Source: Dendrobates tinctorius (lineage: Eukaryota). Taken from it: 64,000 nt of DNA. A program made the position numbers. Below, piece after piece: positions 52,201 to 61,200 of this stretch; positions within the stretch are counted from its first letter, which is position 1; every line of letters begins with the position of its first letter. The stretch covers positions 434,001-498,000 of the forward strand of contig NW_027361779.1 of NCBI RefSeq assembly GCF_039654945.1. Direction: 5' to 3'.

Positions 52201-55200
52201 CACGAAAACTCTCTCTCTCTCCCCGGATGCTGCACATGTCATCTCGTTGCCCACAGTGTACGTCCTTGCTCACTGGCTGAAAAAAGTCACATGCAAGCAT
52301 TCTGGGAAATCCGACTTTGGTGCTCGTTTTGCCAACCTCATGGCCGACTTCACACTGTGGTCGGGTTTCGGTCGGCGAAACCCGACTTTGCCATAAGTCG
52401 GCGACTTATAAATCTGGCCGACCTGTTTCGCTCAACTCTACTAGGGAGGACAGGAAAATCACTGAAATGGATGTAAGCAGTGCTCAAATGGAATGGGAAC
52501 AGAATGGGGAAGACACCTGGACGAATTTCTGACTCTCAGGTCTCTGCTGTAAACAATGATATCACAGTATTACTTCACTTTTACGGACTGACAATATAAC
52601 ATAGAAAACAGAAGGTAAAATGGATTTTACAAGATCAAATGTAAAGAAACATTCTTTCCTGTATAATGATTTGTATATTAAGCAAAATTAAAAAAAAGAA
52701 AAAAACAAACAAACCACAAAAACCTCCTCTTCCACCCCTTAAAGCGGGGCCATCTCTAACCGTATTTCCCCGTCACCTATAACTACAGTACATGACATTG
52801 AAGAGGAGAAAACTACACCCACCGATTAACTGGTTCATTCCTGCCCTATAAATTGAATAAGATATTCCAAAAAGACATTTTCAATTCATCACCTGTATAT
52901 ACAACAATATGCCTCAATAATATATGCAATAGAGACGATTCCTTGATTTAAATGAAACAACAAGAGAAACATAGAGTCAAAAGCTATTTTGACTAAGGAT
53001 AAGCTTTTATTGTAGCAAAAAAGACACATGTGAGAAGACAAGACAAGTTAATTTGTCAATAGATAAGGCATCATTAGTTAAGTAACCCAGAACCAATAAA
53101 AAAGAAAACAGACCAGTACATGAGCAGTAATTATAATATCCGAATGGATAGCCTAATGAGGGATGATTAAATCAGAGGTACATGAATGTACCAGAGCTGG
53201 ACATATATCCTAAAAAGATGACAGAATGATCCCATACTTGTAAACAATTATATAAGTTATTGCACTTAGCCCACTGTTTTGCCAAACTTAAATACCGTAG
53301 TTATCATAGTGGGGATGGCTGGAATAGATGTTAAAGGACCCCAAAAAATATTTGTATATGCAAAGTTGCCTGCACGGGTTCCAACACATCCAGGATAGCC
53401 AAAAGCTCCACCATGAAGATATCAGGTCATGCAAAATGTACATTCATGAAGGACGGAGTGCACATCATAAAAAGAGGTGATGTTCACAAGGAGGGATAAA
53501 TAAAGTTGAAACTGTGCTAAGTAAACATCAAAAACAGCTCAAAAAAGCGGTAATAACATACCCATCATGGCTTGGTAATAGACATATGCTGGTCAGGATA
53601 CCCCAACGCGCGTTTCGCAGTTTTGAATACCTCCCCCCAAGGAAGCGGTATTCAAAACCGCGAAACGCGCGTTGGGGTATCCTGACCAGCATATGTCTAT
53701 TACCAAGCCATGATGGGTATGTTATTACTGCTTTTTTTAGCTGTTTTTGATGTTTACTTAGCACAGTTTCAACGTTATTTACCCCTCCTTGTGAACATCA
53801 CCACTTTTTATGATGTGCACTCCGTCCTTTATGAATGTACATTTTGCATGACCTGATATCTTCATGGTGGAGCTTTTGGCTATCCTGGATGTGTTGGAAC
53901 CCGTGCAGGCAACTTTGCATATGCAAATATTTTTTGGGGTCCTTTAACATCTATGCCAGCCATCCCACTATGATAACTATTTAAGCTTGGCAAAACAGTG
54001 GGCTAAGTGCAATAACTTAAATAATTGTTTACAAGTATGGGATCATTCTGTCATCTTTTTAGGATATATGTCCAGCTCTGGTACATTCATGTACCTCTGA
54101 TTTAATCATCCCTCATTAGTAGTGTTGAGCATTCCGATACTGCAAATATCGGGTATTGGCCGATATTCGCTGTATTGGAGTTCCGATACCGAGTACCGAT
54201 ATTTTTACAATATCAAATACCGGAATTGGAAGTTCCCATAATGCAATGAGCCAGTTGGGTTAGCCATGTTAACTAATGGCATGGCTGTGATTGGCTGCTG
54301 AAATGATGTCATCATGATGCGCGGTCTGTGCAGGCCTGCCGGGGGTCTGTGCGGGCCTGCCTGGGGTCTGTACGGGCCTGCCGGGGGTCTGTGCGGGCCT
54401 GCCGGGGGTCTGTGTGGGCCTGCCGGGGGTCTGTGTGGGCTGCCGGGGGTCTGTACGGGCCTGCCGGGGGTCTGTGCGGGCCTGCCGGGGGTCTGTGCGG
54501 GCCTGCCGGGGGTCTGTGCGGCTGCCGGGGGTCTGCACGGGCCTGCTGGGGGTCTGTGCGGGCTGCTGGGGGTCTGTGCAGGCTGCCGGGGGTCTGTGCA
54601 GGCTGCCGGGGGTCTGTGCGGGACTGCCGGGGGTCTGTGCGGGCTGCCGGGGGTCTGTGCGGGCCTGCCGGGGGTTTGTGCGGGCCTGCCGGGGGTTGTG
54701 TGTGTGTGCAGGCATCGTCCGATGGGACTACAAGTCCCATCGGGCTATGCCTGCTACAATGACAGTGATTGACACATTAGACAATGATGGGACAGTAGTA
54801 GTCCCATCATCCGGCTAATGTGTTGAATGTAAGAAAAAAAAAAAAAACATACATACTACATACATACCACATATATACTACATTCATACAACATACATAC
54901 ATACTACATAATACATACATACTACATATATACTGCATTCATACAACATACATACATACTACATACACTGTGTTCCAAATTATTATGCAAAAAATATTTC
55001 CTCATATTTTCTCTAAATTACCTATATGAATTGCAGTCATTGTTATTTTCCAGTCATCGAATATTCTAATATAATTGCAATGTTTTTGAACAAACTGCCT
55101 ATGAAAACAGTATATTTTTAAAAATAAGAAACACTCAAAATGCATGTTCCAAATTATTATGCACAGCAGAGTTTTCAACCTTTTTATTTTTATTTTGAAC

Positions 55201-58200: not shown

Positions 58201-61200
58201 GCTGGAAGCATTCCTCAGAGATTTTGGACCATATTGACATGATGGCATCACACAGTTGGCGCAGATTTGTCGGCTGCACATCCCTGATGCGAATCTCCCG
58301 TTCCACCACATCCCAAAGATGCTCTATTGGATTGAGATCTGGTGACTGAGGAGGCCATTTGAGTACAGTGAACTCATTGTCATGTTCAAGAAACCAATCT
58401 GAGATGATTCGAGCTTTATGACATGGCACATTATCCTGCTGAAAGTAGCCATCAGATGCCTGTTCTTAGCTGAGAGGAGTGGTACCCAGTGTGGTCTTCT
58501 GCTGCTGTAGCCCATCTGCCTCAAAGTTCGACGCACTGTGCGTTCAGAGATGCTCTTCTGCCTACCTTGGTTGTAACGGGTGGCAATTTGAGTCACTGTT
58601 GCCTTTCTATCAGCTCGAACCAGTATGCCCATTCTCCTCTGACCTCTGGCATCAACAAGGCATTTCCGGCCACAGAACTGCCGCTCACTGGATTTTTTTT
58701 CTTTTTCGGACCATTCTCTGTAAACCCTAGAGATGGTTGTGCGTGAAAATCCCAGTAGATCAGCAGTTTCTGAAATACTCAGACCAGCCCTTCTGGCACC
58801 AACAATCATGCCACGTTCAAAGGCACTCAAATCACCTTTCTTCCCCATACTGATGCTCGGTTTGAACTGCAGGAGATTGTCTTGACCATGTCTACATGCC
58901 TAAATGCACTGAGTTGCCGCCATGTGATTGGCTGATTAGAAATTAAGTCTTAACACACAGTTGGACAGGTGTACCTAATAAAGTGGCCAGTGAGTGTATG
59001 TAGTATGTATGTAGTATGTATGTATGTATGTTGTATGAATGTAGTATATATGTAGTATGTATGTAGTATGTATGTATGTATGTTGTATGAATGTAGTATG
59101 TATGTTTTTTTTTTTTTTTACATTCAACACATTAGCCGGATGATGGGACTACTACTGTCCCATCATTGGCTAATGTGTCAATCACTGTCATTGCAGCAGG
59201 CATAGCCCGATGGGACTTGTAGTCCCATCGGACGATGCCTGCACACACACACAATCCCCAGCAGGCCCGCACAGACCCCGGCAGCCCGCACATACCCCCA
59301 GCAGGCCCGTACAGACCCTCGGCAGGCCCGCACAGACCCCCGGCAGCCCGCACAGACCCCCGGCAGGCCCGCACAGACCCCCAGCAGCCCGCACAGACCC
59401 CCGGCAGGCCCGCACAGACCCCTGGCAGGCCCACACAGACCCCTGAGAGGCCCGTACAGACCCTGCCCGCACACACAGACACGCACAGTGTCCGCCCACA
59501 CACCGCCCACACTCTTCCCCCCTCCCGAACTGAATGTGCAAGTAAAGAAAGGCTTTATTTTCATTCCGATATTTGTGCCCCATTGACTTGCATGGGTTTC
59601 CGGTATCGGAATCGGCGATACCCTATACTTTTTGGGTATCGGTCCGATCCAATCCGATCCGATACTTCACGATATCTGATGGTATCGCTCAACACTACTC
59701 ATTAGGCTATCCATTCGGATATTATAATTACTGCTCATATACTGGTCTGTTCTCTTTTTTATTGGTTCTGGGTTACTTAACTAATGATACCTTATCTATC
59801 GACAAATTAACTTGTCTTGCTTTCTCACATGTGTCTTTTTTGCTACAATAAAAGCTTAACTTTAGTCTAATAGCTTTGGACTCTATTTTTCTCTTGTTGT
59901 TTCATTCTGCCCTATGAATTGTAGGCTTTTTTGCCCAGGAGAGGTGACAAATCAGGACAAGGACCAAACTTTGAAGGATGCCTTGACATTGGCAGTTGGG
60001 CTCACATACATTGTCAAATCTATGCGCTAAGTATCTTCTTTTTTAAGGTAAATTTTTATAGTAACTTTGTAGATGAATATTTCATAAATACATTATCTAG
60101 CGTTTTTCCCATTTTCTATAGCAGGAATGCAGCTTTAATGTTCTAGAGTAATCATAGCGTAATTTGTGGTGCAACCCTATAATTTTTCAAGCTACACCCA
60201 CTAGTAGTCACCTGTAAATGTAATTTTACCATTTTACTACCTTATATGGGCATGTGGTGTGTGTGACATTGTCAGACACATCCTGTTAAATTTATGAAAG
60301 AGAGACTATAAAATTCACAAAGCCTATGCGGACAATGCAATAGCTGACAAAAATTAGAAGGAAAAGGGACTCTGATACACCATGTGATATACATAAAGGA
60401 AGGCCTCATGTACATTCTGTTAAAATTGTTAGGTAGTGACACTTCTAGACTCATAAAGCCTATGCGCTAATTGCGAGGGCTGCCAAAAATTAGGAGAGAC
60501 TGCAATTCACCCCGGAAGACATGTAAAGGAGGGCCTCAAAAAATATTTTTTGCCCATTTTTAAGGAGTGGGACTGCTATACTGGTAAAGTCTATGCATTA
60601 AGTGCAAGGGCTAGAAAACATTTACCCCTGTGTGGTATGTATATATATATAAATGGAACACTCAAATAACACATCCTAGATCTGAATGAATTAAATATTA
60701 TCTTTGAATACTTTGTCCTGCAGAAAGTTGAATGTGCTGACAACAAAGTCACACAAGAATCATCAATGGAAATCACATTTCTTAACCAATGGAGGCCTGG
60801 ATTTGGAGTCCCCCCAAAAAAATTAAAGTGGAAAAACACACTACAGGCTGATCCAACTTTGTTGTAATGTCCTTAAAACAAATCAAAATGAGGCGCAGTA
60901 TTGTGTGTGGCCTCCAAGTGCCTGTATGACCTCCCTACAATGCCTGGGCATACTCCTGATGAGGTTGCGGATGGTCTCCTGTGGGTTTTCCTCTCAAACC
61001 TGGAATAAAGCATCCGACAACTCCTGGACAGTCTGTGGTGAAACGTGACATTGGTGGATGGAGCGAGACATGATGTCCCAGATGTGGTCAATCGGATTCA
61101 GGTCTGGGGAACGGGCCGGCCAGTCCATAGCTTCAATTCCTTCATCTTGAAGGAACTGCTGACACACTCCAACCACATGAGGTCTGGCATTGTCCTGCAT

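What the first reader, a model, noticed from the sequence alone, without database searches (positions are those of the whole stretch)
52841..59921. Second fold-back element with the same asymmetric design, turning at the hammerhead
Seen: ~680-bp inverted arms with a 15-nt loop (53632-53646), a 15-bp flanking direct repeat, and ~95 extra nt on the left arm only. This repeats the design of the 8-kb element (14-bp TSD, ~140 extra nt). The axis falls within stems I/II of a degenerate hammerhead, and there is no coding sequence. Inference: a 5'-truncated or non-autonomous Penelope product in which the RT stalled or folded back at the ribozyme structure. Such hairpins could be misread as DNA-transposon MITEs.
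Basis: partly seen in the sequence, partly recalled or inferred. Interest (0 to 1): 0.65.

Follow-up and report, generated by a model that had tools for sequence, protein, structure and literature searches.

The report
Head-to-head Penelope-like retroelement remnant
A dead, non-coding end piece of a Penelope-like jumping gene sits in a frog-like genome as two mirror-image copies that meet at a broken hammerhead ribozyme motif; this is the ordinary, already described way such elements insert.

Summary
A 15-bp direct repeat (14/15) flanks 52856-59906. Inside are a 95-nt one-sided extension, a 681-nt left arm, a 15-nt spacer and a matching right arm. Without that insertion the element would be 1,465 bp.

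The 8-kb element (18770-26750) has the same design. It encodes a reverse transcriptase with a GIY-YIG endonuclease, whose relatives are in frogs, and it has a complete hammerhead core in its 3' UTR. Inverted 5'-truncated copies, a tail at one end and a variable duplication are the published Penelope-like signature.

At the axis, only the + strand keeps both flanks of a hammerhead. The CUGANGA box is absent and Rfam finds no ribozyme there. The spacer reads as part of the right copy, but the tail is on the left copy. A single cDNA folding back does not explain that combination. Two cDNAs, one primed from each nick and joined by a 5-nt microhomology, fit better.

No eukaryotic DNA collection was available, so genome-wide copies and linkage to an RT were not tested. 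Verdict: an ordinary new member of a known kind.

The parts
52841..52855 (.). Left copy of the 15-bp target-site duplication
   Evidence: Matches 59907-59921 at 14/15.
52856..52950 (-). 95-nt one-sided extension ('tail') at the 3' end of the left copy
   Evidence: Lies between the duplication and the start of arm homology. It shows no similarity to its own arm or to the other element's tail.
52951..53631 (-). Left arm. This is the left, 5'-truncated, non-coding copy; its sense strand is minus.
   Evidence: Inverted matches to 53647-54119 and 59698-59906. No protein similarity.
53632..53646 (+). 15-nt spacer at the axis, read here as the sense continuation of the right copy
   Evidence: Unpaired between the arms. 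The composite hammerhead-flank pattern matches on the + strand only. No other source in the window.
53627..53682 (+). Hammerhead-like remnant that straddles the axis. It has a helix I 5' strand, 7 nt where the CUGANGA box should be (box absent), a 5-bp helix II, GAAA, a short helix III with a palindromic loop, a GUU site and a helix I 3' strand.
   Evidence: No Rfam hammerhead match.
53600..53616 (-). Mirror copy of the 17-nt hammerhead 3' half, in the left arm
53647..54119 (+). Right arm, proximal piece
   Evidence: Palindromic with 53153-53631.
54120..59697 (.). Nested hAT-like non-autonomous insertion of 5,578 bp. It has 11-nt terminal inverted repeats, internal inverted arrays of 21-nt and 11-nt satellites, and an 8-bp duplication at 54112-54119 / 59698-59705.
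   Evidence: A second copy starts at 28438.
54968..56521 (-). Tc1/mariner-like element nested in the hAT-like insertion (26-bp terminal inverted repeats, transposase remnant)
   Evidence: inverted repeats; DDE_3 and HTH_Tnp_Tc3_2.
58095..58999 (-). Second Tc1/mariner-like remnant nested in the hAT-like insertion (32-bp terminal inverted repeats, HTH part only)
59706..59906 (+). Right arm, distal piece; the tail-less 3' end of the right copy
   Evidence: Inverted match to 52951-53152.
59907..59921 (.). Right copy of the 15-bp target-site duplication
18770..23010 (-). Comparator: left copy of the 8-kb Penelope-like pair. It has a 143-nt tail (18770-18912). Its RT-endonuclease gene (about 20185-22524) is broken by one premature stop, with no frameshift.
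23011..26750 (+). Comparator: right, 5'-truncated, tail-less copy of the 8-kb pair. It has an uninterrupted 779-aa RT plus GIY-YIG ORF (23139-25478) and a 1,272-nt 3' UTR.
26347..26392 (+). Comparator: complete type-I hammerhead core in the 3' UTR of the 8-kb element (mirror copy near 19265-19311 on the minus strand)
   Evidence: Rfam Hammerhead_1, model positions 1-45, 19.7 bits, E 0.014; this is below the gathering score of 34. Pattern hits.

Best explanation
The feature is a single, old, now inert insertion of a Penelope-like retroelement (PLE). Only the last ~680 non-coding nucleotides of the element were copied.

Shown: two mirror-image copies lie head to head with their 3' ends outward. 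One 15-bp target duplication surrounds the pair, and one copy carries a 95-nt 3' extension. A hAT-like DNA transposon later landed in the right copy, and two Tc1-like elements landed in that transposon.

Inferred mechanism:
1. The PLE endonuclease nicked the two target strands 15 bp apart.
2. Each nick primed its own cDNA on element RNA. One cDNA began at the distal start site, so it carries the tail. The other began at the internal start site, so it has none.
3. Both cDNAs ended inside the hammerhead region, about 20 nt apart.
4. Their 3' ends were joined through a 5-nt microhomology (53627-53631 with 53647-53651), and each was filled in on the other.

The template RNA had not been cut by this hammerhead. 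The copies keep 27 to 47 nt upstream of the predicted cleavage site, and the catalytic box is missing.
For: Geometry and duplication.

Same design in a coding PLE in the window:
- The 779-aa ORF has 875 relatives at E<=1e-5. The best is 67% identical, from a dendrobatid frog.
- 6 of the 120 listed relatives carry PF01541, and 3 are named as GIY-YIG proteins.
- The window's own C-terminal piece matches GIY-YIG at E 0.0068. Relative P0049 passes the Pfam cut-off.

Orientation and homology:
- The 17-nt hammerhead 3' half is 16/17 identical to the complete core at 26347-26392.
- The composite pattern of the 8-nt helix-I flank plus the 11-nt block occurs only at the two hammerheads of the 8-kb element and, on the + strand only, across this axis. 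It occurs 0 times in 100 shuffles.

Start sites: the tail and the arm begin with similar short motifs in both elements, 5/6 and 5/7 shared. Random position pairs reach this at frequencies 0.013 and 0.031.

Literature (passages read):
- An inverted 5'-truncated copy and a one-sided tail are typical of PLEs (PMC8557442, PMC3846280).
- A PLE protein cleaves and extends both target strands in vitro. The tail corresponds to the stretch between two RT start sites, and uncleaved RNA is the main template (PMC11167929).
- Pairs of minimal hammerheads 100-700 bp apart on opposite strands occur in Schistosoma (PMC4209133, Results section read).
Against: - No RT is linked to this arm, and there is no other copy in the window.
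- The 78-aa ORF across the axis has no homologue in the 5.8-billion-protein set.
- No Rfam hammerhead hit at the axis.
- The 17-nt match alone does not exceed shuffles: score 29 against a null of 23.2 +/- 2.7, maximum 35.
- The composite pattern was chosen after seeing the data.
- The RNA fold of the + strand at the axis is no better than shuffles (z = -0.96).
- The tails (95 and 143 nt) are two to four times longer than the published 30-40 bp. They could instead be read-through of a source locus.
- Assigning the spacer to the right copy rests on few bases: 3 nt of the flank, a C run and 2 nt of helix II.
- What stopped both cDNAs within 20 nt of each other is unexplained. It could be the RNA 5' end or a structural barrier.
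- The 8-kb element by itself is also compatible with snap-back.
Confidence: 0.6

Rival explanations
1. One cDNA, primed at one nick, stalled at the hammerhead structure. Its 3' end snapped back on itself and copied itself, giving a hairpin in one synthesis.
For: - The arms are equal to within 15 nt, with a short spacer.
- A 5-nt self-complementary pair sits exactly at the turn.
- Self-priming has been proposed for PLEs because palindromes occur at inverted junctions (PMC3846280, passage read).
- The 8-kb element, in which the tailed copy is also the longer one, is compatible with this model.
Against: - The spacer carries hammerhead helix I and helix II features in sense on the + strand only. 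The RNA-templated copy that ran through the spacer is therefore the right one, and it has no tail.
- A snap-back copy of it could not acquire the 95-nt tail seen on the left.
- If the snap-back copy had run to the end of its template, it would have continued into the primer and given an inverted target sequence. That is not seen.
Confidence: 0.15
2. The hairpin is a family trait, not a product of this insertion. A non-autonomous element whose master copy already contains the long inverted repeat was copied end to end from one RNA. On this reading the 95 nt are simply its unique 3' end.
For: - One duplication surrounds the whole unit.
- The extension shows no similarity to the arm.
- PLE-dependent non-autonomous derivatives are proposed in vertebrates (bioRxiv 10.64898/2026.07.22.740005, passages read).
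Against: - An unrelated coding PLE in the same window has the same design. This points to a general insertion mechanism rather than to an inherited hairpin.
- Copying through a ~680-bp perfect RNA hairpin is unlikely (inference).
- No second copy exists in the window.
Confidence: 0.12
3. A DNA-transposon MITE or Foldback-type element with long terminal inverted repeats.
For: - Long inverted arms and no coding capacity.
- The window is rich in DNA transposons, and a true foldback-like hAT-type element lies inside this very locus.
Against: - The inverted repeat does not reach the left terminus, because 95 unmatched nt lie there.
- The duplication is 15 bp, longer than the fixed 2-11 bp of DNA-transposon superfamilies (range recalled, not from a call).
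- The arms carry the 3' half of a PLE hammerhead in outward sense orientation.
Confidence: 0.03
4. An assembly artefact, or a DNA-level palindrome from break repair, unrelated to any mobile element.
For: Long-read assemblies can contain fold-back chimeras (general knowledge).
Against: - The arms differ at 22 substitutions and 7 gap columns.
- One arm holds a nested transposon with its own duplication.
- The whole unit is flanked by a 15-bp direct repeat.
Confidence: 0.02

Closest known systems
Canonical endonuclease-positive Penelope-like element insertions (Penelope/Poseidon/Neptune type) with an inverted 5'-truncated copy and a one-sided 'tail'
   Same: Head-to-head inverted copies with 3' ends outward, a single duplication of variable length (14 and 15 bp here), an extension at one end only, and a hammerhead motif in the terminal region. 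All are as described in PMC8557442, PMC3846280 and PMC11167929 (passages read).
   Different: - No ORF and no direct pseudo-LTR; only ~680 nt of the 3' end is present in each copy.
- The tail is 95 nt (143 nt in the neighbouring element), against the published 30-40 bp.
- The catalytic box of the hammerhead is absent.
Dual minimal hammerheads on opposite strands, 100-700 bp apart, reported in Schistosoma mansoni (Cervera and de la Pena 2014, PMC4209133, Results read)
   Same: Two hammerhead-derived motifs face each other on opposite strands, as expected of truncated PLE copies placed head to head.
   Different: Here the two motifs are only about 45 nt apart, and each is a 3' half. Only the + strand also keeps a helix I 5' flank. 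That paper describes neither the junctions nor the duplications.
Twin-priming inversions of human LINE-1 (recalled; no paper read here)
   Same: Two cDNAs primed from the two strands of one staggered break and joined internally by microhomology, giving an inverted segment within one duplication.
   Different: In LINE-1 the two segments come from different parts of the RNA and are not mirror images. Here both start near the same 3' end, so a near-perfect palindrome results.
Non-LTR retrozymes (animal hammerhead repeats proposed as PLE derivatives; bioRxiv 10.64898/2026.07.22.740005, passages read)
   Same: Non-coding, hammerhead-associated, presumably dependent on PLE enzymes.
   Different: Retrozymes are tandem arrays with a working ribozyme in each unit. 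This is a single inverted pair with a dead partial motif.
MITEs and Foldback elements
   Same: Long inverted arms, no coding capacity, and hairpin potential.
   Different: Asymmetric termini, a 15-bp duplication, and arms that are retroelement 3' ends in outward sense.

Membership tests
Penelope-like element (second element, 52856-59906) | ORF with a PLE-type reverse transcriptase and a GIY-YIG endonuclease | tested here: not met
   None of 121 PLE protein queries gave a match in the arms at E<=1e-3, and the longest ORF is 78 aa. This is expected for a copy shorter than the 3' UTR: the UTR of the neighbouring PLE is 1,272 nt.
Penelope-like element (second element) | Head-to-head inverted 5'-truncated copies inside one target-site duplication of variable length | tested here: met
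   The duplication is 15 bp (14/15). Sense orientation is outward, judged from the hammerhead half.
Penelope-like element (second element) | [quoted passage not shown] | tested here: met
   95 nt on the left only. This is longer than the published 30-40 bp (PMC8557442).
Penelope-like element (second element) | Hammerhead ribozyme motif in the terminal repeat | tested here: inconclusive
   The 3' half and the helix I flank are shared with the PLE hammerhead in the window. There is no CUGANGA box and no Rfam hit.
Penelope-like element (second element) | Sequence continuity with RT-bearing copies of the same family | not testable with these tools
   No eukaryotic DNA collection was open. There is no other copy in the window, and the protein proxy search found nothing.
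Penelope-like element (8-kb comparator, 18770-26750) | RT followed by a C-terminal GIY-YIG endonuclease | tested here: met
   - RVT_1 in the left copy's piece, 30.6 bits.
- GIY-YIG at E 0.0068 in the window's C-terminal piece, below the cut-off; relative P0049 scores 25.3 bits, above the cut-off.
- Relatives carry PF00078, PF28514, PF26215 and PF01541.
Type-I hammerhead ribozyme (axis of the second element) | Conserved core CUGANGA ... GAAA with helices I, II and III and an NUH cleavage site | tested here: not met
   GAAA, a short helix III, a GUU site, and helix I and helix II pairings are present. The 7 nt in the box position match only 2 of the 6 specified core bases as read. Rfam gives no hit.
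Type-I hammerhead ribozyme (8-kb comparator, 26347-26392) | Full core and a match to the Rfam model | tested here: inconclusive
   All core bases are present. Hammerhead_1 matches model positions 1-45 at 19.7 bits and E 0.014 in a 151-nt search, below the gathering score of 34. It was missed in the whole-window scans. Self-cleavage was not tested.
MITE / Foldback DNA transposon (second element) | Inverted repeats that reach both termini, and a short duplication of fixed length | tested here: not met
   95 unmatched nt lie at the left terminus. The duplication is 15 bp.
Non-LTR retrozyme | Tandem head-to-tail units, each with a hammerhead | tested here: not met
   No tandem arrangement of the arm; the motif is partial.
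hAT-like non-autonomous transposon (nested insertion, 54120-59697) | 8-bp target duplication, short terminal inverted repeats, and a hAT transposase in autonomous members | tested here: inconclusive
   The 8-bp duplication is perfect and the 11-nt termini are identical. There is no hAT transposase; the only coding remnants are Tc1-like. The superfamily is assigned from recalled criteria.

The most novel reading that the evidence does not exclude
In Penelope-like elements the hammerhead region may serve as a preferred meeting and joining point for the two cDNAs of one insertion, rather than (or in addition to) cutting RNA. Its helices supply the short self-complementary stretches that let two identical cDNAs pair 3' end to 3' end. 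This would explain why head-to-head pseudo-LTR pairs so often carry facing hammerheads, and why the motif is kept even where cleavage is dispensable.
Probability: 0.12. Interest if true: 0.6.

Novelty: new member of a known kind. Interest (0 to 1): 0.3.

Why it matters
On its own this is an ordinary dead retroelement. It has three uses.

1. Annotation. A 1.5-kb hairpin with no ORF, later split by a 5.6-kb transposon, would easily be labelled a MITE or a 7-kb 'foldback' element. The one-sided tail and the 15-bp duplication show that it is a Penelope-type insertion.

2. Mechanism. At this locus the copy that owns the spacer is not the copy that carries the tail. That separates the two published ideas about how inverted Penelope copies arise, self-priming and priming from both strands, and it favours priming from both strands.

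3. A testable question. The same comparison, done on all copies in a genome, could settle that question with sequence data alone. It could also show whether junctions cluster at the hammerhead.

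Tried and rejected
- Rfam on the whole window gave no hammerhead: 0 matches at gathering score, and 0 of 3 matches at E<=1. On 1.6 kb and on 141 nt around the axis it gave 0 of 9 and 0 of 24. The many microRNA-family matches there are what any long perfect hairpin gives, and I rejected them as gene calls.
- Local alignment of the arm against the 8-kb element's 3' region found only the 17-nt block, which is not significant alone. Alignment of the terminal 200 nt plus tails found nothing: 199 of 300 shuffles scored as high.
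- The tails show no similarity to their own arms or to each other, in either orientation.
- Permissive blastn of the left copy against the window found no further copy.
- The 15-nt spacer has no source elsewhere in the window.
- A protein search with the 78-aa ORF across the axis, used as a proxy for other genomic copies, found no candidate.
- A PDB sequence search with the 779-aa ORF found nothing at E<=1.
- Pfam on the whole 779-aa ORF gave no family even at E<=10, although its C-terminal piece and its 97%-identical partner gave weak hits. I treat this as a filter effect.
- Of the 4 matches to the generic hammerhead pattern, the two at 40852 and 43710 lie in Tc1-like sequence without the rest of the motif. 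I dismissed them as chance.
- A 6-nt similarity between the right arm's end and the target just upstream of the duplication is one base out of register. I dropped it as probable chance.
- I did not run the scan of genome contigs, because that collection holds bacteria and archaea only.

Full report
**1. What is there**

The interval 52841-59921 is bounded by a 15-bp direct repeat, 52841-52855 and 59907-59921, matching 14 of 15. In the whole window, on both strands, this is the only other match to the right-hand 15-mer with up to two mismatches. Dinucleotide shuffles give 0.23 on average.

Going inward from the left:
- 95 nt that match nothing else (52856-52950);
- an arm of 681 nt (52951-53631);
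- 15 unpaired nt (53632-53646);
- the reverse complement of the arm.

The repeat finder and a self-BLAST give two separate inverted matches. One is 53153-53631 with 53647-54119. The other is 52951-53160 with 59698-59906.

**2. Why the right arm is in two pieces**

The two matches overlap by 8 nt on the left arm (53153-53160). Reading the letters shows the reason. A 5,578-bp element (54120-59697) with identical 11-nt inverted termini sits in the right arm. It is flanked by a perfect 8-bp direct repeat at 54112-54119 and 59698-59705.

That element has a second copy starting at 28438. It contains inverted arrays of a 21-nt G+C-rich repeat and an 11-nt repeat. It also holds two nested Tc1-like remnants, at 54968-56521 and 58095-58999.

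Compared piece by piece, the arms differ at 22 substitutions and 7 gap columns over about 680 positions. The hairpin without the insertion would measure 1,465 bp; this figure comes from adding lengths only.

These differences, the nested transposon and the flanking repeat rule out an assembly artefact.

**3. The comparator in the same window**

The 8-kb element has the same plan:
- an exact 14-bp duplication (18756-18769 / 26751-26764) within a 38-bp satellite;
- 143 extra nt on the left only (18770-18912);
- arms 18913-22720 and 23011-26750, differing at 46 substitutions (1.2%) and 80 gap columns, 75 of which are one indel.

The 290-nt centre is coding on the minus strand: tblastn matches run to 23018 on that strand. 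It therefore belongs to the left copy, which is the longer copy and also the tailed one.

The right copy has an uninterrupted 779-aa ORF. Over the same 2,340 nt, the left copy has one premature stop, no frameshift and 28 substitutions.

The ORF has 875 relatives at E<=1e-5 among 8,000 scored candidates. The 120 listed are mostly from frogs, and the best is 67% identical. Six of the 120 carry PF01541, and three are named GIY-YIG proteins by a source. The window's own C-terminal piece matches GIY-YIG weakly (E 0.0068, below the cut-off). The relative P0049 passes the cut-off. No solved structure matches by sequence.

This is a canonical endonuclease-positive Penelope-like element. The host looks amphibian, and nothing in the window looked human.

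**4. The hammerhead**

Whole-window Rfam scans find no hammerhead. A 151-nt scan finds Hammerhead_1 at 26347-26392 on the sense strand of the 8-kb element. It matches the full model at 19.7 bits and E 0.014, below the gathering score of 34. All core bases are present. The motif lies about 360 nt from the tail-less 3' end. Just upstream of it is a stretch with 65% G+C and a CpG observed/expected ratio of 0.94.

At the axis of the second element no hammerhead family matches: 0 of 9 and 0 of 24 matches. The microRNA-type matches are generic hairpin hits.

What is shared with the complete motif is the following.
- A 17-nt block comprising GAAA, a two-pair helix III with a palindromic loop, the cleavage triplet and the helix I 3' strand. 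It is 16/17 identical and present in both arms in outward sense. Alone it does not beat shuffles.
- An 8-nt block that forms the helix I 5' flank.

The two blocks together, 10-40 nt apart, occur only at the two hammerheads of the 8-kb element and once across this axis, on the + strand only. They occur in 0 of 100 shuffles. The pattern was chosen after seeing the data.

On that strand the 15-nt spacer supplies a C run that pairs with the helix I 3' strand, and two bases that complete a 5-bp helix II (fold; its energy is no better than shuffles). Seven nucleotides stand where the CUGANGA box should be, but they match only 2 of its 6 specified bases.

As it stands it cannot be a ribozyme.

**5. 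Coding capacity and other copies**

The arms hold no ORF above 78 aa. None of 121 PLE protein queries matches them. That fits a copy shorter than a PLE 3' UTR, which is 1,272 nt in the neighbour.

No second copy of the arm or tail exists in the window, even with permissive settings. The ORF across the axis has no relative among 5.8 billion proteins.

**6. How it most likely arose**

The literature gives the frame.
- PLE insertions are often 5'-truncated, often carry an inverted 5'-truncated copy, and often have a 30-40-bp tail at one end only (PMC8557442, passages).
- A purified PLE protein cuts and extends both target strands. It starts reverse transcription at two internal sites whose spacing corresponds to the tail, and it uses mainly uncleaved RNA (PMC11167929, passages).
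- Self-priming has also been proposed, from palindromes at inverted junctions (PMC3846280, passage).

Here the spacer reads as the sense continuation of the right copy, which has no tail. The left copy has the tail. If one cDNA had snapped back, the second arm would be a copy of the first. It could not contain 95 nt that its template lacks.

Two cDNAs, one from each nick of a 15-bp staggered cut, explain all of the following:
- the duplication;
- the one-sided tail, from two different start sites;
- the asymmetric spacer;
- the 5-nt microhomology (53627-53631 against 53647-53651) at which two otherwise identical cDNAs could pair 3' end to 3' end.

A weak extra hint is that in both elements the tail and the arm begin with similar short motifs, 5/6 and 5/7 shared. 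Random position pairs reach this at frequencies 0.013 and 0.031.

Both copies keep 27-47 nt upstream of the predicted cleavage site, so the template had not been cut there.

Shown: the anatomy, the orientation and the order of events (hairpin, then the hAT-like element, then the Tc1-like elements). Inferred: the priming scheme, the joining step, and why both cDNAs ended within about 20 nt of each other. That could be the RNA 5' end or a structural barrier, and I cannot tell which.

**7. Comparison and verdict**

The feature behaves like, and by structure belongs with, Penelope-like insertions. Membership by sequence (an RT-bearing relative of this arm) could not be tested.

It differs from textbook cases in three ways. 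It consists of nothing but two ~680-nt terminal pieces. Its tail is long (95 nt, and 143 nt in the neighbour). The two copies meet inside the hammerhead region. Facing minimal hammerheads on opposite strands have been reported before (PMC4209133, Results section read).

It is not a MITE. The inverted repeat stops 95 nt short of one terminus, and the duplication is 15 bp.

I rate it a new member of a known kind, of modest interest. The one non-trivial point is that this locus argues for priming from both strands over snap-back.

**8. Limits**

- There is one locus per family.
- The key pattern was chosen after seeing the data.
- The assignment of the spacer rests on few bases.
- Supplementary files of the papers could not be seen, including the amphibian hammerhead families of PMC4209133.
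- The LINE-1 twin-priming comparison and the DNA-transposon duplication ranges are recalled, not read here.
- No spliced gene model was needed.
- The N run at 39920-40048 was left alone.

Noticed in passing
window 54120-59697 and 28438-31146: A foldback-like, hAT-type non-autonomous element. It has 11-nt inverted termini, subterminal short repeats, and long inverted arrays of a 21-nt G+C-rich repeat, a 47-nt palindrome and an 11-nt repeat. The copy at 28.4-31.1 kb lacks the second terminus and sits in a 38-bp satellite.
   Followed up: partly
window 40049-41618 (next to the N run 39920-40048): A Tc1/Sleeping-Beauty-like transposon with 189-bp inverted ends that are 100% identical, and an uninterrupted 340-aa transposase ORF (HTH_SB, HTH_Tnp_Tc3_2, DDE_3). 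It looks young. Its left end abuts the masked or gap stretch, which I left alone.
   Followed up: partly
window 34393-46761: 502-bp direct repeats (95% identical) at 34393-34894 and 46260-46761 enclose weak pol remnants on the + strand between about 38022 and 39753 (RNase H, integrase zinc-binding domain, integrase core). This is a decayed LTR-retrotransposon or retrovirus-like stretch, interrupted by Tc1-like insertions and the N run. I describe it only.
   Followed up: partly
window 62583-63481 (minus strand): A third Penelope-like fragment covers only part of the RT (about residues 85-383 of a 725-aa relative). It uses two frames and shows no detectable link to the hairpin 2.7 kb away.
   Followed up: partly
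window 18573-18769, 26751-28437, 31147-31504: A 38-bp satellite array that took both the 8-kb Penelope-like pair and the hAT-like element. PLEs are reported to favour repetitive targets (PMC8557442, abstract: a microsatellite bias in one clade).
   Followed up: no
window 26100-26300: A stretch that is not CpG-depleted (65% G+C, CpG observed/expected 0.94) lies immediately upstream of the hammerhead in the 8-kb element's 3' UTR. It may be the pseudo-LTR promoter. If transcripts start there, the hammerhead lies at the 5' end of the RNA.
   Followed up: no
window 14668-16452 (+) and 78-587 (-): Other retroelement remnants. One is a strong RVT_1 match (E 1e-23) at 15315-15923, in a region of marked negative GC skew. 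The other is a Ty3-type gag-like ORF at the window start.
   Followed up: no
window 1492-1845 and 63477-63830: An inverted repeat of 354 nt (88% identical) lies near the two ends of the window. One arm overlaps a hairpin-type Rfam match at 63789-63875. It is probably copies of one more repeat family.
   Followed up: no
window 18770/18913 and 52856/52951: In both Penelope-type elements the tail and the tail-less arm begin with similar short motifs (5 of 6 and 5 of 7 bases shared). This is as expected if they mark two alternative start sites of reverse transcription.
   Followed up: partly
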